A stretch of 64,000 nt of DNA, taken from Escherichia coli. Lineage in GTDB: Bacteria; Pseudomonadota; Gammaproteobacteria; Enterobacterales; Enterobacteriaceae. The stretch is taken from the NCBI RefSeq assembly GCF_003334355.1, contig NZ_QOWP01000001.1; one strand, written 5' to 3'. Positions 42,899-48,850 of this stretch are shown piece by piece (positions within the stretch are counted from its first letter, which is position 1; the number at the start of each line of letters is the position of its first letter). The notes beneath the pieces are model-generated. The model was not told where the DNA came from and made no database searches. It saw only the letters and a list, made by a program, of their open reading frames with translations. The translations under genes were made by a program, and so were the position numbers.

Positions 42899-43182
42899 AG
42901 ATCTCCTGCAAGGTTTTCCCTGAGCAAATTTGCCAGACAGAGTAATCCAGCAAATCGTCCGGGGAAACCTTACCTGTCGCAAACTGCGACTGATTGGTTA
43001 ATTGTCGAACATTTAATCGACTGAAACGCTTCAGCTAGGATAAGCGAAACGTGGAATAAAAGGAATGTTTGTCCAGCCGAAGAAGACATTTATCTGACTC
43101 ACATCACACTTTTATCCCCTTTTGTGGGAAGCTTTATTCCAGGCTGGCGTAATAATAACCCTACAATAACTGGAATAAATTG

Positions 43183-43896
43183 TCAGCTTGTGAAGTGATA
43201 CCGGCCTTCTTCAGTCATCTCTACTATCAGATTGGCCTGACGGCTATTCATCAGCACACGCTCGACATTGGGGCCATCGGTGCGGGCATAAAATGCTTCG
43301 GCTACTTGCCGCGTTAATCCTCCCGCAATTTTACGACTAATCAAGCGCTCCCGCAGAATTTGAGCAGGTGCATGAATAAAAATAGAAAAATCGCAGAAAG
43401 ATGCCAACTCCAGCCACTTTTCATCATCCAGTAACAACCAGTTTCCTTCGACGATGACGAGTGGTGCGGTAACGTGCAACGCATCTTCAACAGGATCATG
43501 CTTTTGTCGATCGTACTGCGGCCACGTACAATCCCCTTCCACGACCTGGCGCAGATTTTCCGTCAGTTTCGCAACGTCAAATGTCTCTGGTGCGCCTTTG
43601 AAGGGGCGCAATTGATGCGCATCCAGCCAGCTATTGTAATGGTGAAAACCATCCATCGGGAGCGTCTGAATAGCGGGCAGTTCCGGGTCTTGTTGCGCGA
43701 GATATTCCCAGAAGGTGGTTAGGGTTGATTTACCCGTCCCCGGCGGAGCGCAAAGAAAAACCACCGTACGCCGCTGCGGATTTACCGTCTGTAAGGCCGC
43801 CAACATGTGCAGCAACGGTTTATGTACATTTTCAATCTCTTCGTTCTGGTACTGTGCCTGTATCTTCAGCCCATTCACCGTTAATTCAATTTTCAC
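43183..43896 (-). CDS. yggC: P-loop nucleoside/pantothenate-kinase-like protein YggC
   Basis: 237 aa; Walker A GTGKST visible (APPGTGKSTLTTFWEY); overlaps yggD by 4 nt. Confidence 0.85.
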   Translation of the reverse strand: MKIELTVNGLKIQAQYQNEEIENVHKPLLHMLAALQTVNPQRRTVVFLCAPPGTGKSTLTTFWEYLAQQDPELPAIQTLPMDGFHHYNSWLDAHQLRPFKGAPETFDVAKLTENLRQVVEGDCTWPQYDRQKHDPVEDALHVTAPLVIVEGNWLLLDDEKWLELASFCDFSIFIHAPAQILRERLISRKIAGGLTRQVAEAFYARTDGPNVERVLMNSRQANLIVEMTEEGRYHFTS

Positions 43897-44402
43897 GGCG
43901 TTAATTCCTTTAAGGTGGTCGTTACTGCCAGCGTCAGCGCCGTTTTGACCATTCCGCTAAAACGCGCCTCTGACCAGACGGCGAAATCGGCGAACTTCAT
44001 CGCTTTCAACGCGTCATAGAGCGTCGCATTGCAGGTTATGCTATTGACGTTGCTGATAAAATCCCAGGTCATGTCATCGGCAAATCCGGGCGTTTCATCC
44101 TGTTCGTTCAGGTAATGCCAGAACTGGGAAAAATGCGTGATATCGGCGTACAACCATTTATCCATTTTCCCCAACGCATAAATCAAACGCAGTGCAACAT
44201 CAATATCGTCAAGCGGGCCGCTTTGGGCGAGTAACGGCTTCACTGCATATTCCACGATCTCTTCATCGTTATCGACAAACAGCGACGGCAGAAACTGGCG
44301 TATCCCCTGGAGCAAAATGGTATGCGCAGTTTTCATAAATGAAAATAAATTGTCCTGTGCATCCAGTTGCTCAAGCACATCATCTTCTGTCAGCGTCGCC
44401 AT
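43893..44402 (-). CDS. yggD: MtlR-like (mannitol-operon-repressor family) regulator YggD
   Basis: 169-aa ORF, MATLTEDDVLEQLDAQDNLFSFMKTAHTILLQG... Confidence 0.85.
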   Translation of the reverse strand: MATLTEDDVLEQLDAQDNLFSFMKTAHTILLQGIRQFLPSLFVDNDEEIVEYAVKPLLAQSGPLDDIDVALRLIYALGKMDKWLYADITHFSQFWHYLNEQDETPGFADDMTWDFISNVNSITCNATLYDALKAMKFADFAVWSEARFSGMVKTALTLAVTTTLKELTP

Positions 44403-44423
44403 TGGTCTTCCGATAGATCACCA

Positions 44424-45389
44424 TCAATGCAGGGAGTCTATTATATTACACGTTTGGTCCGCGCCGCCGATCAGTAATGTCTGCGTCCGCACCCCATTCG
44501 CCGTCTGTTGGATACCGTTCACCAGCTCACCGCCCGTCACGCCCGTAGCGCTAAAGAGGATATCGTTCCCCCTCACCAGTTCATCAAGCGAGTACACACG
44601 GTTAACGTCAACGCCCATTGCCTTGCAACGCTTGCGCTCCTGCTCTGCAATCTGCCGATTTTCCGTGTAATCCCCTTTAGCCTGGCAAAAGTCAATCAGC
44701 TCGGCCTGCATATCCCCGCCTAATGCTTTAACGGCACAGGCAGAAATCACGCCTTCTGGCGCACCGCCGATGGTGTACATCACATCGTAAGGATTATCCT
44801 GCCAGCAGGTCAGCACGCTGGCGGCGACATCGCCATCCGGCAGGGCAAAAACCTTCACGCCCAGCTGTGTTGCTTCCTCAATCGCGGCACTCAGGCGCGG
44901 TTTATCCAGCGTAACCATGCGCAGCTTATCCAGCGGTTTGCCTAACGCTTTCGCCACGTTGCGCAGGTTGTCCGTCAGAGGCAAAGACAGATCAATCGCG
45001 CCCGCCGCCAGCCGATTAACAACCAGCTTTTTCATATACATATCGGGCGCATGTAACAGGCTATCTCGAGGGGCGAAAGCCATGACCGCCAGCGCATTGC
45101 TCTGCCCCATCGCCACCATCCGCGTGCCTTCAATGGGATCAACCGCGATATCGACTTCTGGCCCATCGCCTTTGCCCACCTCTTCGCCAATCCACAGCAT
45201 CGGCGCATGGTCAATTTCTCCTTCGCCGATAACCACTCGTCCACGAAAAGCGACGTCGTTTAATGCCTGGCGCATCGCGGTGACCGCCAGGCCATCAATT
45301 TTATTTTTGTCGCCACATCCGGTTTGCGGCCAGGCAGCCAACGCTGCCTGTTCCGTAACGCGAAATAATGGCCACGCCAGGGACATCAT
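44424..45389 (-). CDS. yggF: Class II (GlpX-type) fructose-1,6-bisphosphatase paralogue YggF
   Basis: 321-aa GlpX-family ORF; overlaps yggP by 4 nt. Confidence 0.88.
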   Translation of the reverse strand: MMSLAWPLFRVTEQAALAAWPQTGCGDKNKIDGLAVTAMRQALNDVAFRGRVVIGEGEIDHAPMLWIGEEVGKGDGPEVDIAVDPIEGTRMVAMGQSNALAVMAFAPRDSLLHAPDMYMKKLVVNRLAAGAIDLSLPLTDNLRNVAKALGKPLDKLRMVTLDKPRLSAAIEEATQLGVKVFALPDGDVAASVLTCWQDNPYDVMYTIGGAPEGVISACAVKALGGDMQAELIDFCQAKGDYTENRQIAEQERKRCKAMGVDVNRVYSLDELVRGNDILFSATGVTGGELVNGIQQTANGVRTQTLLIGGADQTCNIIDSLH

Positions 45390-46663
45390 TGCGCGGCCTC
45401 CCCGATATCAACGCCAAATTGTGCCAGCAGATATTTCTCGGCCTGTTCATTCCAGATGCCGTGCGTTTCCTCAACCAGCCGCGCCAACTCTTTAAACAGC
45501 GGATCGGTTTTGCCTTTTTCGGCAAAATCGGCAATGGCAGTGAGCGGCATGGTCACGCCGTTATAAATGAGTTTTTTACCGCCAGGGATATCCGGCAGAT
45601 TGAGCACGGTTTCTGGCACCGCATCCAGGCCACCGATATGGGTCACCATAAACGACGGCTGTAACTGCCCAGTGGCGCTAAGGGCAATCGCCTCTTTCAT
45701 GTCGTCCGTTGAACCGCCAGATGTACCGACGACGTGCGTGCTGTTGTAATGGACGTTGTAGAAATTAAACGACACTTTGAAGTTTTTATCCGTCGGCCCG
45801 GCAAAGAAGTTCAGACAGCCATCTTCCGCCAGTAATTCATCAGCCATCTCAACGACAGCAGGCACCGCCGCATAAACAAAAATGTCATCGAACCCGGCAT
45901 CTCCTGTCAGCGCCCGCAGCATCTGGACAGGATCGCTCATCCCTTTGGTATTCACATACACCAGCTCAATGCCTTTACTGGCCGCCAGTTCCACCGGCAG
46001 CAGCTTCTGTACCTGCGCCAGACGTTTGTCGTCGATATCGACCACCACCACCCGCGACGGTTGTATGCCGCCGTTAATGGCGTAATCGATAGCGCCAATG
46101 CCCATCGGACCTGCACACGCCAGCAGTGCAATATTGCCGCCAGGTTTGACGCCCATGCGATGCTCATAAACATATTGCGTGGTGTGATAATTGGCATGAT
46201 AAGCACCAATAATGCAGCACATAGGCTCTGCCAGCGACGCCGCAGCAAAATAAGAGCCGTGATACGGTAATACGCAGCCCAAATTAATGGCGATTTCGGG
46301 AATAATCATATAAGTGGCATTGCCGCCAAAATATTCGTAGCTGTAGCCCGCTGAATATCCGCTTGGTAACCCCATCGCCGGTTGCAATACAAAACGCTGG
46401 CCTTTTTTATATTTGCCAGTGAGATTTTTACCCACTTCGACAATAACCCCGGCACATTCATGCCCGGTAATGACCGGATGATTTTCTAAATCGTCGGGTA
46501 CGCGTTTATGTTCACTACCGAGTAACGCCGCTTTCCAGGTCGATAAACAGACGCTGTCAGAAATTACACTCACCAGTAATTCATTATCGGTAATTTCTGG
46601 CAGTTCAAATACGCGCAGACGGACATCCCGCTTGCCATAAATAGCAGCAACTTTGGTTTTCAT
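45386..46663 (-). CDS. yggP: Zn-dependent medium-chain dehydrogenase (polyol dehydrogenase-like) YggP
   Basis: 425 aa; MDR zinc-ADH-like signature (…PVITGHECAGVIVEVG…). Confidence 0.85.
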   Translation of the reverse strand: MKTKVAAIYGKRDVRLRVFELPEITDNELLVSVISDSVCLSTWKAALLGSEHKRVPDDLENHPVITGHECAGVIVEVGKNLTGKYKKGQRFVLQPAMGLPSGYSAGYSYEYFGGNATYMIIPEIAINLGCVLPYHGSYFAAASLAEPMCCIIGAYHANYHTTQYVYEHRMGVKPGGNIALLACAGPMGIGAIDYAINGGIQPSRVVVVDIDDKRLAQVQKLLPVELAASKGIELVYVNTKGMSDPVQMLRALTGDAGFDDIFVYAAVPAVVEMADELLAEDGCLNFFAGPTDKNFKVSFNFYNVHYNSTHVVGTSGGSTDDMKEAIALSATGQLQPSFMVTHIGGLDAVPETVLNLPDIPGGKKLIYNGVTMPLTAIADFAEKGKTDPLFKELARLVEETHGIWNEQAEKYLLAQFGVDIGEAAQ

Positions 46664-46677
46664 TTTTACCTCTGTAA

Positions 46678-48066
46678 TCAGTGTTTATGTTCGGCGGTTA
46701 ATTGATTAAATAAAGTGTCGAGTTTTGGATCGCCAATATAGTTATTAATCAATATCAGTGGTTTATCCGTCACACGTTTCACGCGCCCTTCCAGACTGGC
46801 ATGAGTAACGACGATATCCGCATCCGCAGGCACGTTTTCTATGGCGTAATGTTTTACTTCAATTGCCAGCCCCGCTTTTTCCAGGCGTTTACGGAAGGTG
46901 GTCGCGCCCATCGCACTGGAGCCCATCCCCGCATCGCAAACAAAGGCGATACGCTTAACCCTGCTTAACGAGAATGCACCCTCTTGTTTCATCGCCTTAA
47001 CCGCATTGGCTGACTGAGCAAACTCATCTTCGCTCTCCGTTTCCACCGTTTTTTCCATCTTCAGTATCAGCGAAGTAATAGCAAAGGACACCAGGGTACC
47101 TACCGTAACACCGGCAATTGTCGCCAGGAACGAGCCTTTCGGCGTCAGTGCCAGGTAAGCAAAGATAGACCCCGGACTTGGGCCAGCCACCAGACCACCG
47201 TCCAGTAAGTTAAACATCCAGGTGCCAGACATACCGCCCGCAATCATGGCAATAATGGTCAGCGGCTTCATCAGCACATACGGGAAATACAGTTCGTGGA
47301 TCCCACCGAGGAAGTGAATAATCATCGCCCCGGGCGCAGAACGTTTACTCATCCCTTTACCAAACAAGGTAAACGCCAGCAGCAGCCCCAGGCCCGGACC
47401 TGGGTTAGAGGCCACCATAAAGAAGATGGATTTACCGTTAACCGAAGCCTGTTGCATTCCCAGCGGATAATAGACGCCCTGATCGATCGCATTATTGAGG
47501 AAAAGCACTTTCGCCGGTTCATTGATGACTGACAACAATGGCAGATAACCCGCATGTACCAGCGCCTCAATACACTCTTTGACGAAAGTATTGGCAATTA
47601 ACACCGCCGGGCCGATCACTTCAAAACCCAGCAGACAAAGGAGCATCCCCGCGATACCTAATGAGAAGTTATTGATAACCATCTCAAAACCAGCAGGTAT
47701 GCGTTTTTCCAGTGCCTTATCAACATATTTTATGACCAGCCCACCGAGCGGCCCCATAATCATTGAGCCAAGGAACATCGGGATCTCTGCGCCGACGATC
47801 ACACCAATAGTACCTATTCCGCCCATGACCGCGCCGCGTTTACCGCCGACCAGATGACCACCGGTAGAACCAATCATCACGGGCAATAAATAGGTAATCA
47901 TCGGGCCGACAATTTTGGCGAAATGTTCGTTAGGCAGCCAACCGGTGGGAATAAATAACGCAGTAATAAAACCCCAGGCAATAAAAGCACCAATATTGGG
48001 GATGACCATTGCAGTCAAAAAGCCCCCAAAAGCCTGGACCTTTGCACGAGCAGACTTGTTTTCCAT
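46678..48066 (-). CDS. cmtA: PTS mannitol-family EIICB component (cryptic)
   Basis: 462-aa polytopic EIIC with a C-terminal EIIB domain (…FVCDAGMGSSAMGA…). Confidence 0.9.
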   Translation of the reverse strand: MENKSARAKVQAFGGFLTAMVIPNIGAFIAWGFITALFIPTGWLPNEHFAKIVGPMITYLLPVMIGSTGGHLVGGKRGAVMGGIGTIGVIVGAEIPMFLGSMIMGPLGGLVIKYVDKALEKRIPAGFEMVINNFSLGIAGMLLCLLGFEVIGPAVLIANTFVKECIEALVHAGYLPLLSVINEPAKVLFLNNAIDQGVYYPLGMQQASVNGKSIFFMVASNPGPGLGLLLAFTLFGKGMSKRSAPGAMIIHFLGGIHELYFPYVLMKPLTIIAMIAGGMSGTWMFNLLDGGLVAGPSPGSIFAYLALTPKGSFLATIAGVTVGTLVSFAITSLILKMEKTVETESEDEFAQSANAVKAMKQEGAFSLSRVKRIAFVCDAGMGSSAMGATTFRKRLEKAGLAIEVKHYAIENVPADADIVVTHASLEGRVKRVTDKPLILINNYIGDPKLDTLFNQLTAEHKH

Positions 48067-48093
48067 AATATTATCCTGTAGAGGAGAGAGTAA

Positions 48094-48537
48094 TTATCCG
48101 CGGCTGATAATGTCCGCTAATTGTTTTTCTGATGATGCTGTTAAGAGTTGTTCGAGTATTTCTTCTTCGCACAGTAATTCACTTAACGTCTGAATAGCGC
48201 CAATGTGCGAATCGGCATCGGCAGCAGAGAGTCCGATGAGTAATTTAATTGGTTCGTCATTCCCCGGAAAATAAACACCTTGTTCAAGTAATGTCAAAGA
48301 CATCCCGGTTTTAAGCGCCCCACATTCCGGTCGCGCATGAGGCATTGCCACGCCTGGTGCGAGAATATAATAAGGGCCATTGTTAATGGTGGAATCTTTA
48401 ATTGCCTGAATGTAATTCTCGCTGATATAGTTTTTATCCAGCAATGATACCATCGAGAAATCGATAGCTTCCTGCCAATCTTTTGCTGAATGTATAACTG
48501 AGATTGATGATTCTGGAAAATAATCACTAAGCCGCAT
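48094..48537 (-). CDS. cmtB: PTS mannitol-family EIIA component (cryptic)
   Basis: 147-aa EIIA(Mtl)-like ORF with a phosphorylatable His region (GVAMPHARPE). Confidence 0.9.
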   Translation of the reverse strand: MRLSDYFPESSISVIHSAKDWQEAIDFSMVSLLDKNYISENYIQAIKDSTINNGPYYILAPGVAMPHARPECGALKTGMSLTLLEQGVYFPGNDEPIKLLIGLSAADADSHIGAIQTLSELLCEEEILEQLLTASSEKQLADIISRG

Positions 48538-48808
48538 AAATTATCCTTATTTTATTTTTAGGGTACCGTCCGGCGGTAAAAATAAAATACTCGTGCGGTT
48601 TAATGAAAGCAATTGAGCAGGGAAACCGGTGTTTTGAAAACAGTTAATTATTAATTTCTTATATAACATTGAGTTATAGTTATAACAACAAATGTCAATA
48701 CGCATATCGTGATGCATATTACATAATTGATATTTATTGCATATAAATATTTGTGATCTACAACACGCTTTATCTATTGCTTGTCCGCAAACGGACATAT
48801 CAAGGTAA

Positions 48809-48839
48809 TAAAAAAGGTCGCCGAAGCGACCTTTTTACC
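48809..48839 (-). terminator. Rho-independent terminator downstream of tktA
   Basis: Minus strand reads aaaGGTCGCttcgGCGACCtttttt. Confidence 0.75.
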
Positions 48840-48850
48840 CGAAATGCTAA

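What the first reader, a model, noticed from the sequence alone, without database searches (positions are those of the whole stretch)
43183..48537. Cryptic cmtBA-yggPFDC operon: an orphan PTS catabolic cassette with unknown substrate
Six co-directional genes with short or overlapping junctions encode a mannitol-family PTS EIIA (cmtB) and EIICB (cmtA), a Zn-dependent polyol-type dehydrogenase (yggP), a GlpX-type sugar bisphosphatase (yggF), an MtlR-like regulator (yggD) and a P-loop kinase (yggC, Walker A GTGKST). Together they look like a complete uptake-and-catabolism pathway for a phosphorylated sugar alcohol or ketose, but as far as I know no substrate has been assigned. This is the least-understood system in the window and the best candidate for new biochemistry.
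Basis: partly seen in the sequence, partly recalled or inferred. Interest (0 to 1): 0.6.

Follow-up and report, generated by a model that had tools for sequence, protein, structure and literature searches.

The report
Orphan sugar-alcohol uptake operon of E. coli
This is the known but functionally unassigned cmtBA-yggPFDC operon of E. coli, whose four-gene core (two-part sugar-alcohol transporter, SorE-like dehydrogenase, YggC kinase) is kept together in enterobacteria, vibrios and gut clostridia, which suggests a testable pathway for an unidentified sugar alcohol.

Summary
Six intact genes lie on the minus strand at exactly 43183-48537, with junctions of 27, 14, -4, 21 and -4 nt. The window is E. 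coli chromosome, and the block is present in all 5426 complete E. coli genomes.

The locus is already named and partly characterised:
- YggF has FBPase activity.
- The YggD structure is solved; it is now called "fumarase E".
- The cmtB promoter depends on CRP.

I found no assigned substrate. What I add is comparative:
- CmtB + CmtA + YggP + YggC are conserved as a module in Enterobacterales, Vibrionaceae and Clostridia.
- The phosphatase is swappable: GlpX-type YggF, a YcdX-like PHP phosphatase, or none.
- The regulator is swappable: MtlR-like YggD, or PRD-type activators.
- YggP is a 45%-identical paralogue of SorE, the L-sorbose-1-phosphate reductase.
- In a sister cluster, a PfkB 1-phosphofructokinase-like gene takes YggC's place.
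- All genes are under strong purifying selection.

Best model, inferred and not shown: an alditol is phosphorylated on uptake, oxidised next to the phosphate to a ketose-1-phosphate, then phosphorylated to a 1,6-bisphosphate (probably FBP). YggF returns part of this to the 6-phosphate.

Verdict: a real, known orphan of moderate interest.

The parts
48094..48537 (-). cmtB: free-standing PTS EIIA (mannitol/fructose type), phospho-acceptor His67
   Evidence: ORF. NF007358 equivalog, 324 bits. RefSeq name. AMPHA motif. 27% identity to the IIA domain of Rahnella MtlA. Homologue present in 80 of the 85 surveyed loci.
46678..48066 (-). cmtA: PTS EIICB, mannitol subfamily, phospho-Cys377 in the IIB domain
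   Evidence: TIGR00851 480 bits against 468; NF011663 593 against 589. 52% identity to the MtlA IICB part. VCDAGMGSS motif.
45386..46663 (-). yggP: long (425 aa) Zn-dependent MDR oxidoreductase, paralogue of SorE (L-sorbose-1-phosphate reductase). Proposed alditol-phosphate/ketose-1-phosphate oxidoreductase.
   Evidence: Pfam ADH_N + ADH_zinc_N. 45% identity over 98% of its length to K. pneumoniae sorE, which lies in a sorCDFBAM-E operon. Shared residues C39, H68, E69, E146, GPMG, D209, GGKK. Orthologues of >=62% identity in Vibrionaceae and Clostridia.
44424..45389 (-). yggF: class II (GlpX-type) fructose-1,6-bisphosphatase paralogue. Accessory, lineage-specific member of the module.
   Evidence: TIGR00330, 588 bits. 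PDB GlpX 1ni9, E = 5e-111. FBPase activity reported (Brown 2009, as cited in PMC8719807). Present in 50 of 56 Enterobacterales loci, 0 of 18 Vibrionaceae and 0 of 11 Clostridia. The ATG overlaps the yggP stop by 4 nt.
43893..44402 (-). yggD (RefSeq fumE): MtlR-family protein, probable PTS-coupled regulator of the operon
   Evidence: Pfam MtlR, 178 bits, full length. NF007455, 335 bits. Near-identical to PDB 3c8g and related to MtlR 6kcr and 3brj. 29% identity to Rahnella MtlR. Present in 55 of 56 enterobacterial and 18 of 18 vibrio loci, and replaced by PRD regulators in clostridia.
43183..43896 (-). yggC: P-loop kinase of the PRK/uridine-kinase/PanK superfamily (FrcK-like), Walker A at 53-58, GTG start overlapping the yggD stop. 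Proposed ketose-1-phosphate (or hexose) kinase.
   Evidence: NF006742, 504 bits. PDB 3c8u 'fructokinase', E = 5e-21; PanK, 1e-10. Core member of the module in all three lineages. Its position is taken by a PfkB 1-PFK-like kinase in sister locus L090. Family members lie in sugar/polyol clusters elsewhere.
48538..48850 (-). AT-rich (32% GC) regulatory region between the tkt terminator and cmtB. Holds two CRP-like half-palindromes, at 48752-48767 and 48708-48723.
   Evidence: Sequence. CRP pattern matches with 2 mismatches each. GC content. CRP dependence of the cmtB promoter shown experimentally (PMC3105977; PMC12412646). No strong sigma-70 consensus was found by the scan.
48810..48836 (-). Intrinsic terminator of tkt (AGGTCGC-TTCG-GCGACCT followed by a T run). 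Upstream boundary of the operon.
   Evidence: Read directly from the sequence.

Best explanation
cmtBA-yggPFDC is a functional, CRP-activated catabolic operon for a mannitol-like sugar alcohol that has not been identified. Its core is four proteins.

Proposed steps (all inferred unless marked):
1. CmtB (EIIA) and CmtA (EIICB) take up the alditol and phosphorylate a terminal carbon.
2. YggP, a SorE-type Zn oxidoreductase, oxidises the carbon next to the phosphate ester and produces a ketose-1-phosphate.
3. YggC, a FrcK-like P-loop kinase, phosphorylates the other end and produces a ketose-1,6-bisphosphate. This is most simply fructose-1,6-bisphosphate, which the aldolase FbaA cleaves.
4. Because carbon then enters at the bisphosphate level, a 1-phosphatase is needed to make hexose-6-phosphate for biosynthesis. 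YggF fills this role in enterobacteria. I propose the same role for a YcdX-like PHP phosphatase in vibrios, for a PPi-PFK in the few clostridial loci that have one (3 of 11), and for housekeeping enzymes elsewhere.
5. YggD is an MtlR-like regulator, probably controlled by PTS proteins and not by direct inducer binding.

Shown: gene content, family memberships, conservation, purifying selection, CRP dependence of the promoter, and FBPase activity of YggF. Inferred: the substrate, the position oxidised by YggP, the substrate of YggC, the order of steps, and the role of YggD.
For: 1. The module is conserved with three different gene orders: A-CB-P-F-D-C in Enterobacterales, A-CB-P-D-C-PHP in Vibrionaceae, and A-C-CB-P in Clostridia. 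YggC is within 6.5 kb on the same strand in 55/56, 17/18 and 10/11 loci.

2. YggP is 45% identical over its full length to SorE and shares the catalytic Zn ligands. SorE reduces L-sorbose-1-P to D-glucitol-6-P, so its redox centre is adjacent to the phosphate (PMC12817954).

3. Other family members lie next to a rhamnulokinase-like ketose 1-kinase (L089), a RhaD-type ketose-1-P aldolase (L088), or an FGGY kinase plus an MtlD-like dehydrogenase (L098).

4. In L090, a 47%-identical YggP homologue sits in the order Mtl-type EIICB, EIIA, YggP-like, PfkB 1-phosphofructokinase-like, HPr, EI. This is a non-orthologous replacement of YggC by a ketose-phosphate kinase.

5. YggC-family genes elsewhere follow fructose or polyol ABC transporters. 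In Deinococcus one lies beside a mannitol dehydrogenase, where a fructokinase step would be expected. Its nearest PDB relative was deposited as 'fructokinase'. It was independently predicted to be a sugar/polyol kinase (PMC3223725).

6. Three unrelated enzymes that interconvert bisphosphate and monophosphate occupy the accessory slot: GlpX-type YggF, PHP/YcdX-like, and PPi-PFK. YggF has measured FBPase activity (PMC8719807).

7. dN/dS is 0.04-0.10 for cmtA, yggP, yggF, yggD and yggC, and the block is present in every complete E. coli genome.

8. The promoter is CRP-dependent and active, and CRP-like sites are present. cmtB is induced in gut contents.

9. YggD is replaced by PRD/EIIA-containing activators in Firmicutes. 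That is the pattern expected of a regulator, not of a fumarase.
Against: - No growth or transport phenotype is known. An mtlA deletion, but not a cmtA deletion, abolishes a mannitol-dependent phenotype (PMC11656735).
- A PcmtA-GFP screen of 198 Biolog compounds reported nucleosides, not a polyol, as the top inducers (PMC12412646). These plates are carbon-source panels that, from memory, include the common polyols.
- The position oxidised by YggP and the substrate of YggC are untested.
- E. coli YggC gets no significant Pfam hit.
- YggD bound no DNA in ChIP-exo and showed fumarase activity in an in-vitro screen (PMC8464067).
- In other contexts the SorE family works reductively, so the direction of the YggP reaction is uncertain.
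- Most clostridial loci, and those of Rahnella and Budvicia, have no dedicated phosphatase, so that step is dispensable.
- Only one PfkB-replacement locus was found.
Confidence: 0.45

Rival explanations
1. Ketose-reductive route, working like the sorbose operon. CmtBA imports a ketose and phosphorylates C1. YggP, like SorE, reduces the ketose-1-phosphate to an alditol-6-phosphate. A housekeeping dehydrogenase such as SrlD or MtlD then oxidises that to fructose-6-phosphate. YggC and YggF would be auxiliary, for salvage or detoxification.
For: YggP is a SorE paralogue, and SorE acts reductively. Family member L098 sits between an FGGY kinase and an MtlD-like dehydrogenase, which is the same carbonyl-shift logic. 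The EIIA is of the type shared by fructose-family PTS, which phosphorylate C1.
Against: CmtA passes the mannitol-specific IIC model and is 52% identical to MtlA, which points to an alditol. No second dehydrogenase is present in any of the 85 loci, whereas the kinase is nearly universal and this model leaves it unexplained.
Confidence: 0.15
2. Phosphatase-first phosphate relocation. The ketose-1-phosphate made by YggP is dephosphorylated by YggF, the PHP enzyme or a housekeeping phosphatase to the free ketose. YggC, acting as a FrcK-type fructokinase, then phosphorylates the ketose at C6.
For: YggC relatives sit where a fructokinase is expected, after fructose or polyol ABC transporters and beside a mannitol dehydrogenase. 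The nearest PDB relative was deposited as 'fructokinase'. The phosphatases vary in family, as expected for a simple monophosphatase role.
Against: It wastes the PTS phosphate. The phosphatase is absent from about 17 of the 85 loci. The replacement kinase in L090 is of the 1-PFK/tagatose-6-P kinase type, which acts on ketose phosphates and not on free sugars. YggF is an FBPase by assay.
Confidence: 0.15
3. Heptitol or heptulose route. The substrate is a seven-carbon polyol such as volemitol or perseitol. The bisphosphate is sedoheptulose-1,7-bisphosphate, and YggF acts as a sedoheptulose bisphosphatase that feeds sedoheptulose-7-P to the neighbouring transketolase.
For: The cluster lies directly downstream of tkt and upstream of epd-pgk-fbaA in Enterobacteriaceae. 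It is next to tal-tkt or tkt in 5 of 18 Vibrionaceae loci, in two different arrangements. Class II FBPases closely related by sequence are bifunctional FBP/SBPases (PDB 3roj and 5a5l). No common polyol was reported as an inducer.
Against: The tkt...epd neighbourhood may be only an insertion site. The Vibrio Tkt is the ordinary type, 76% identical to E. coli TktA. There is no tkt linkage in clostridia or in most vibrios. There is no biochemical evidence for heptitol transport by any Mtl-family PTS.
Confidence: 0.1
4. There is no joint pathway. The block is an evolutionary remnant of a duplicated mannitol system. Its proteins now serve unrelated roles: YggF as a spare FBPase, YggD as a fumarase, and CmtAB as a low-level or promiscuous porter that lets in aminoglycosides, for example.
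For: The name is historically 'cryptic mannitol'. YggD showed fumarase activity in an in-vitro screen. A yggF deletion has a mild phenotype in glycerol fermentation. A cmtA deletion raises the tobramycin MIC. No substrate has been found.
Against: The same core genes are kept adjacent in three distant lineages despite rearrangement. dN/dS is as low as for tkt and epd. Translationally coupled junctions are present. YggD has no similarity to any fumarase family and is swapped for PTS-controlled regulators in Firmicutes.
Confidence: 0.08

Closest known systems
E. coli mannitol operon mtlADR
   Same: It has a mannitol-subfamily PTS permease: CmtA is 52% identical to the MtlA IICB part, with the same Cys phosphorylation motif. 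It has an MtlR-family protein: YggD is 29% identical to MtlR. It is activated by CRP.
   Different: In the cmt operon the EIIA is a separate protein and only 27% identical. There is no MtlD-type mannitol-1-phosphate 5-dehydrogenase (Pfam Mannitol_dh). Instead there are a SorE-like MDR enzyme, a P-loop kinase and an FBPase. A cmtA deletion has no effect on a mannitol phenotype. In Rahnella the two systems sit side by side as separate operons.
L-sorbose operon sorCDFBAME (Klebsiella, pathogenic E. coli)
   Same: SorE is the closest characterised relative of YggP: 45% identity over the full length, with the same Zn ligands. Both operons couple a PTS to redox chemistry on a sugar phosphate whose phosphate is next to the redox centre.
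   Different: The sor operon uses a mannose-family four-subunit PTS, a second dehydrogenase (SorD) and a SorC regulator, and has no kinase or phosphatase. The cmt module has a mannitol-family PTS, a kinase and no second dehydrogenase.
Fructose PTS operon fruBKA, and tagatose-1-phosphate kinase routes
   Same: The proposed logic is the same: the PTS leaves the phosphate on C1, a dedicated kinase makes the 1,6-bisphosphate, and an FBPase is then needed to supply hexose-6-P. In sister locus L090 a PfkB 1-PFK-like gene occupies the kinase slot.
   Different: YggC is a P-loop PRK/PanK-superfamily protein, unrelated to PfkB-family FruK. A dehydrogenase step comes before the kinase. None of this has been shown biochemically.
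GlpX, class II fructose-1,6-bisphosphatase
   Same: YggF passes the GlpX equivalog model (588 bits) and has reported FBPase activity.
   Different: YggF is encoded in the cmt operon and not with glpFK. It is restricted to Enterobacterales copies of the module and is functionally replaceable by a PHP phosphatase. Its preferred physiological substrate is untested.
FrcK of the Sinorhizobium meliloti frcBCAK fructose-transport operon, and PDB 3c8u
   Same: They belong to the same kinase family (30-40% identity) and are encoded as the last gene of a sugar-uptake operon.
   Different: They are associated with ABC transporters and not with a PTS. Their function is also uncharacterised, so the comparison gives context but not mechanism.

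Membership tests
PTS Enzyme II, mannitol subfamily (Fru/Mtl family) | EIIC domain matching the mannitol-specific model | tested here: met
   TIGR00851 480 bits against a cutoff of 468; NF011663 593 against 589. The margin is narrow, as expected for a paralogue.
PTS Enzyme II, mannitol subfamily (Fru/Mtl family) | Phosphorylatable Cys in the IIB domain and His in EIIA | tested here: met
   CmtA Cys377 in VCDAGMGSS and CmtB His67 in AMPHA. CmtB matches equivalog NF007358 with 324 bits.
PTS Enzyme II, mannitol subfamily (Fru/Mtl family) | PEP-dependent transport and phosphorylation of D-mannitol | not testable with these tools
   The literature is indirect and negative: a cmtA deletion does not affect a mannitol-dependent phenotype, whereas an mtlA deletion does (PMC11656735).
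SorE, L-sorbose-1-phosphate reductase | Long MDR fold with Cys/His/Glu catalytic zinc ligands and full-length similarity to SorE | tested here: met
   45% identity over 98% of the length to annotated sorE. C39, H68, E69, E146, GPMG and D209 are invariant across YggP and SorE.
SorE, L-sorbose-1-phosphate reductase | Encoded with the mannose-family sorbose PTS (sorFBAM) and sorD | tested here: not met
   All 85 YggP-type loci have a mannitol-family EIIA/EIICB and YggC instead. The true sorE context is shown. YggP is therefore a paralogue, not SorE.
SorE, L-sorbose-1-phosphate reductase | NAD(P)H-dependent reduction of L-sorbose-1-phosphate | not testable with these tools
   This needs an enzyme assay.
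Class II fructose-1,6-bisphosphatase (GlpX) | Match to the GlpX equivalog model above its cutoff | tested here: met
   TIGR00330 588 bits against 259. PDB GlpX, E = 5e-111.
Class II fructose-1,6-bisphosphatase (GlpX) | FBPase activity | not tested
   Reported by Brown et al. 2009, as cited in PMC8719807 and PMC10733421.
MtlR family (mannitol operon repressor) | Full-length MtlR domain | tested here: met
   Pfam PF05068, 178 bits, residues 5-167. PDB MtlR 6kcr, E = 9e-13. The MltR subfamily model scores 87 bits, below its cutoff of 149, so YggD is a distinct subfamily.
MtlR family (mannitol operon repressor) | Regulation of the adjacent PTS operon, or DNA binding | not testable with these tools
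   ChIP-exo found no binding sites for YggD (PMC8464067). Genomic context fits a regulator, because it is swapped for PRD regulators in Firmicutes.
Fumarase (class I FumA/B, class II FumC), for YggD, which RefSeq names 'fumarase E' | Sequence similarity to a known fumarase family | tested here: not met
   The NCBIfam and Pfam scans return only MtlR-type families. The name rests on an in-vitro metabolomics screen cited in PMC8464067.
P-loop kinases of the PRK / uridine kinase / pantothenate kinase superfamily (YggC/FrcK group) | Walker A motif and a match to the family models | tested here: met
   GTGKST at 53-58. NF006742 504 bits against 402. PDB 3c8u, E = 5e-21; PanK, 1e-10. E. coli YggC has no significant Pfam hit, but its orthologues hit PF00485 PRK.
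P-loop kinases of the PRK / uridine kinase / pantothenate kinase superfamily (YggC/FrcK group) | Identity of the phosphoryl acceptor | not testable with these tools
   Only context is available: replacement by a PfkB 1-PFK-like kinase in L090, and sugar/polyol clusters elsewhere.
Single operon | Co-directional genes, short or overlapping junctions, and conserved linkage | tested here: met
   Junctions are 27, 14, -4, 21 and -4 nt. Linkage is conserved in 3 lineages. No internal terminator-plus-promoter pair stood out above chance. Co-transcription itself was not tested.

The most novel reading that the evidence does not exclude
The YggC/FrcK P-loop kinases are a previously unrecognised class of ketose-1-phosphate (or alditol-phosphate) kinases, non-homologous to PfkB-type FruK and TagK. 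Together with a SorE-like alditol-1-phosphate 2-dehydrogenase they would form an undescribed PTS route (alditol-1-P to ketose-1-P to ketose-1,6-bisphosphate). The substrate would be a natural polyol absent from standard phenotype arrays, possibly a rare hexitol or a heptitol that feeds sedoheptulose phosphates to the adjacent transketolase. The route would be shared by E. coli, marine vibrios and gut clostridia.
Probability: 0.3. Interest if true: 0.6.

Novelty: already known. Interest (0 to 1): 0.4.

Why it matters
This is one of the few sugar-transport operons in E. coli, the best-studied bacterium, that still has no substrate. It is present in every complete E. coli genome and is under selection as strong as that on neighbouring glycolytic genes. 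Identifying its substrate would fill a gap in the E. coli metabolic map and assign a function to the widespread YggC/FrcK kinase family. It could also reveal a gut or marine nutrient shared by enterobacteria, vibrios and clostridia.

The comparative results narrow the experiments. The core to test is CmtBA + YggP + YggC. YggP should be assayed on alditol phosphates and ketose-1-phosphates, and YggC on ketose-1-phosphates. The results also argue that the database name 'fumarase E' for YggD probably does not describe its physiological role.

Tried and rejected
1. Seven full-text literature searches for an assigned substrate or phenotype found none. They returned only regulatory and incidental data.

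2. The best NCBIfam hit for YggP, scyllo-inosose 3-dehydrogenase IolM, was rejected: 83 bits against a cutoff of 450.

3. I first thought vibrios carried a divergent, dedicated transketolase next to the cluster, at 41-45% identity. This was an artefact of an out-of-frame Tkt query. With the correct frame, the Vibrio Tkt is 76% identical to TktA, which is the ordinary type.

4. A 265-aa gene after yggC in Rahnella was checked as a possible replacement phosphatase. By inspection it is a secreted thioredoxin-fold (CxxC) protein, so it was rejected.

5. The promoter and terminator scans gave no more sites than shuffled controls (7 against 8.6, and 6 against 7.0). They found no clear sigma-70 promoter upstream of cmtB and no terminator after yggC.

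6. The primary GlpX/YggF paper (PMC2635049) was not held. The YggF substrate range, including sedoheptulose bisphosphate, could not be checked.

7. Cofactor and direction were not inferred from D209, because the residue is invariant in SorE as well.

8. Structure prediction was not run. Sequence-level matches already place every protein in its fold family, and a model would not identify the substrate.

Full report
**What is there**

The window is E. coli chromosome. The 5.7-kb stretch around the finding matches all 5426 complete E. coli genomes, 5388 of them over at least 80% of its length. The RefSeq annotation of a 99.9%-identical genome lists, between tkt and epd-pgk-fbaA, the genes cmtB, cmtA, yggP, glpX (= yggF), fumE (= yggD) and yggC.

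The ORF list puts these on the minus strand:

| Gene | Coordinates |
|---|---|
| cmtB | 48094-48537 |
| cmtA | 46678-48066 |
| yggP | 45386-46663 |
| yggF | 44424-45389 |
| yggD | 43893-44402 |
| yggC | 43183-43896 |

The junctions are 27, 14, -4, 21 and -4 nt.

**Family assignments**

- **CmtB** is a mannitol-type EIIA equivalog.
- **CmtA** passes the mannitol IIC model narrowly.
- **YggF** passes the GlpX model by a wide margin.
- **YggD** is an MtlR-family protein.
- **YggC** is a PRK09270 'nucleoside/nucleotide kinase family' protein (Pfam).

The phosphorylation-site and nucleotide-binding motifs are intact: CmtB His67, CmtA Cys377 and YggC GTGKST. CmtA is 52% identical to the IICB part of an MtlA, CmtB is 27% identical to its IIA domain, and YggD is 29% identical to MtlR.

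**What was already known**

- YggF has FBPase activity, and its deletion has a mild phenotype in glycerol fermentation (PMC8719807; PMC10733421).
- The YggD structure is solved (3c8g), alongside structures of MtlR.
- YggD gave no ChIP-exo peaks and is cited as 'verified as fumarase E' from an in-vitro metabolomics screen (PMC8464067).
- The cmtB promoter binds CRP and loses activity in a crp mutant (PMC3105977). A second laboratory confirmed this. That laboratory also screened 198 Biolog compounds with a PcmtA-GFP fusion and reported nucleosides, not a polyol, as the best inducers. It further found that a cmtA deletion raises the tobramycin MIC (PMC12412646).
- An mtlA deletion, but not a cmtA deletion, abolishes a mannitol-dependent phenotype (PMC11656735).
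- cmtB is 4-8 fold higher in bovine gut contents than in glucose medium (PMC6199705).
- YggC was predicted to be a sugar/polyol kinase in 2011, with experiments 'in progress' (PMC3223725).
- An intragenic sigma-54 site was mapped in yggP (PMC4591121), and the motif is present in the window at 46127-46143.

I found no paper that assigns a substrate. The locus and its orphan status are therefore known, and its function is not.

**The module is real and under selection**

Against Salmonella, dN/dS is 0.05 for cmtA, 0.04 for yggP, 0.05 for yggF, 0.10 for yggD and 0.09 for yggC. The flanking housekeeping genes tkt and epd both give 0.04. dS is close to saturation and could not be estimated for cmtB, but the contrast with dN is clear for the other five.

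I also scanned one genome per species for YggP relatives and recovered 80 loci. I analysed these together with five loci obtained earlier.

| Lineage | Gene order | YggC present | YggD | Phosphatase |
|---|---|---|---|---|
| Enterobacterales | cmtB-cmtA-yggP-yggF-yggD-yggC | 55/56 | 55/56 | YggF in 50/56 (absent in five Rahnella and one Budvicia) |
| Vibrionaceae | EIIA-EIICB-YggP-YggD-YggC-PHP | 17/18 | 18/18 | PHP in 17/18 |
| Clostridia (Hungatella, Blautia, Hespellia, Butyricicoccus and others) | EIIA-YggC-EIICB-YggP | 10/11 | none | none; PPi-PFK beside the cluster in 3/11 |

- The vibrio PHP protein is a close relative of the E. coli zinc phosphatase YcdX.
- In clostridia, large regulators with an HTH-PRD-PRD-EIIB-like-EIIA architecture lie nearby in place of YggD. 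The PPi-dependent phosphofructokinase is documented.

The invariant core is therefore EIIA + EIICB + YggP + YggC. The phosphatase and the regulator are lineage-specific. This pattern argues against the view that the genes are an accidental neighbourhood of moonlighting proteins. It also argues that YggD behaves as a regulator and not as a fumarase.

**What YggP is**

NCBIfam gives only sub-threshold hits. A translated search of annotated plasmid records, however, finds sorE (L-sorbose-1-phosphate reductase) of Klebsiella, Citrobacter and Serratia at 44-46% identity over 97-98% of the length. These genes lie in bona fide sorC-sorD-sorFBAM-sorE operons, and Lactiplantibacillus has the equivalent.

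An alignment shows invariant residues across YggP, SorE and other family members: the polyol-dehydrogenase-type zinc ligands (C39, H68, E69, E146), the GPMG nucleotide loop, D209 and a GGKK motif.

SorE reduces L-sorbose-1-phosphate to D-glucitol-6-phosphate (PMC12817954). The carbon it acts on is therefore adjacent to the phosphorylated carbon.

The family is small, with 221 representatives at E <= 1e-30. Its other members also lie beside ketose-1-phosphate enzymes:
- a rhamnulokinase-like kinase (L089);
- a RhaD-type aldolase/SDR fusion (L088);
- an FGGY kinase plus an MtlD-like dehydrogenase (L098).

**What YggC probably does**

The most informative locus is L090. There, a 47%-identical YggP homologue lies in the order mannitol-type EIICB, EIIA, YggP-like, PfkB-family kinase, HPr, Enzyme I, Mga/EIIA regulator. 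The best model hits for the PfkB-family kinase are the 1-phosphofructokinase/hexose-kinase families. A ketose-phosphate kinase of a different fold therefore occupies the slot that YggC holds elsewhere.

Further context points the same way:
- YggC's nearest solved relative was deposited as 'fructokinase'.
- Family members end the S. meliloti fructose ABC operon.
- In a Deinococcus polyol cluster, one lies between the ABC transporter and a mannitol dehydrogenase, the position a fructokinase usually occupies.
- In Palleronia, one lies with a PfkB kinase and a GatZ-like protein.

**Proposed mechanism**

If YggP oxidised the distal end of the alditol phosphate, as MtlD does, it would yield a ketose-6-phosphate and no kinase would be needed. 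A kinase that is always present is explained if YggP acts, like SorE, next to the phosphate. The product would then be a ketose-1-phosphate, which must be phosphorylated at the far end to enter glycolysis as a 1,6-bisphosphate. This is the logic of the fructose PTS pathway.

If carbon enters at the bisphosphate level, hexose-6-phosphate for biosynthesis has to be made by a 1-phosphatase. That follows from pathway logic alone. It explains why three unrelated enzymes that interconvert bisphosphate and monophosphate (GlpX-type YggF, the PHP enzyme and PPi-PFK) appear in the accessory position, and why the step can be left to housekeeping enzymes in some lineages.

The simplest product is fructose-1,6-bisphosphate, from a mannitol-1-P or glucitol-1-P type intermediate. 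The true substrate is unknown. Common polyols are unlikely, given the mtlA/cmtA genetics and the inducer screen.

I give this chain 0.45. The weaker statement, that this is a functional PTS-dependent polyol/ketose catabolic module, I would put near 0.8.

**Rivals**

- A reductive, sorbose-like route (0.15) fits the family but leaves the universal kinase unexplained, and no second dehydrogenase is ever present.
- A phosphatase-first route with YggC as a fructokinase (0.15) fits the ABC-transporter contexts of YggC relatives. It wastes the PTS phosphate and fails where no phosphatase is encoded.
- A heptitol/sedoheptulose route (0.10) is suggested by the position beside tkt in enterobacteria, by the tal-tkt or tkt neighbours in 5 of 18 vibrio loci, and by the bifunctional FBP/SBPases among YggF's relatives. 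The linkage is partial, and the Vibrio Tkt is of the ordinary type.
- 'No joint pathway' (0.08) is contradicted by the conservation and the selection data.

**Regulatory region**

Between the tkt terminator (48810-48836, read) and cmtB lies a 313-nt region of 32% GC. It holds two CRP-like sites, at 48752-48767 and 48708-48723, which agrees with the published CRP dependence. The consensus scans found no convincing sigma-70 promoter there and no terminator after yggC. Read-through into epd cannot be excluded.

**Verdict**

The object is an already known, annotated orphan operon. It is not a new kind of system, although the enzyme combination does not match any characterised pathway. Interest is moderate. 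A specialist would not be surprised that it exists, but the comparative anatomy makes its function directly testable.

Noticed in passing
window 45772 (yggP codon 298) and 48189 (cmtB codon 117): Over this 5.7 kb the window differs from E. coli ATCC 8739 at only three bases. Two change amino acids: YggP P298S and CmtB A117T. Pro298 is conserved in the E. coli, Escherichia, Vibrio and clostridial YggP sequences inspected, and in Klebsiella SorE, so P298S is a private and possibly impairing variant.
   Followed up: partly
window 46127-46143 (-), inside yggP: The motif CTGGCGGCAATATTGCA matches exactly. It was reported as an intragenic sigma-54 binding site (IS35) in E. coli K-12 (PMC4591121). 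Its function is unknown, and it points towards yggF.
   Followed up: partly
window 43093-43108, yggC-epd spacer: A CRP-like site with one mismatch (TCTGACTCACATCACA) lies in the 284-nt spacer upstream of epd. It probably belongs to the epd-pgk-fbaA promoter and not to the cmt operon. No terminator was seen after yggC.
   Followed up: no
L059, L061, L077, L083 (upstream) and L072 (downstream), Vibrionaceae loci: A transaldolase-transketolase pair, or transketolase alone, lies directly beside the cmt-like cluster in 5 of 18 vibrio loci, in two arrangements. This echoes the tkt adjacency in enterobacteria. In Rahnella L047, fbaA and tkt follow yggC. It could be shared ancestry, or it could be a functional hint.
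   Followed up: partly
L050-L054 (Rahnella spp.): The cmt-like cluster here lacks yggF and lies next to a canonical mtlA-mtlD-mtlR operon. Only a secreted thioredoxin-like gene separates them, so the two mannitol-family systems coexist as distinct units.
   Followed up: partly
L004, L005 (Salmonella enterica) and about 14 other enterobacterial loci in which epd lies ~6.9-7.3 kb from yggP: An ECF-type transporter module (ABC ATPases, CbiQ-like T component, S component) plus a PCC-domain gene is inserted on the opposite strand between yggC and epd. It is absent from the window.
   Followed up: no
P0014 (671 aa): One E. coli protein cluster fuses a PTS EIIC domain to the YggP dehydrogenase domains (PF02378 + PF08240 + PF00107). 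The likely cause is a mutation or annotation artefact that joins cmtA and yggP across their 14-nt gap.
   Followed up: no
L037 (record titled Chryseobacterium sp. 18061): This locus has the full enterobacterial synteny (tkt...cmtBA-yggPFDC-epd) at 87-91% protein identity to E. coli. The record is probably mislabelled or contaminated, and is not a Bacteroidota genome.
   Followed up: no
H11-H15 in the plasmid collection (e.g. NZ_CP141089.1 at 4.9 Mb, NZ_CP137739.1 at 187 kb, CP088472.1 at 33 kb): Several records in the plasmid database that carry this cluster are chromosome-sized. A 187-kb and a 33-kb 'plasmid' also carry yggP-glpX-fumE-yggC. These may be misassigned chromosomal contigs.
   Followed up: no
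window 48094-48537 (cmtB) and 48538-48850: cmtB has markedly lower GC (42%) than the rest of the operon (49-57%) and the window (52%), and the upstream spacer is 32% GC. CmtB is also the fastest-evolving member of the core (76% identity to Salmonella, against 90-91% for CmtA and YggP).
   Followed up: no
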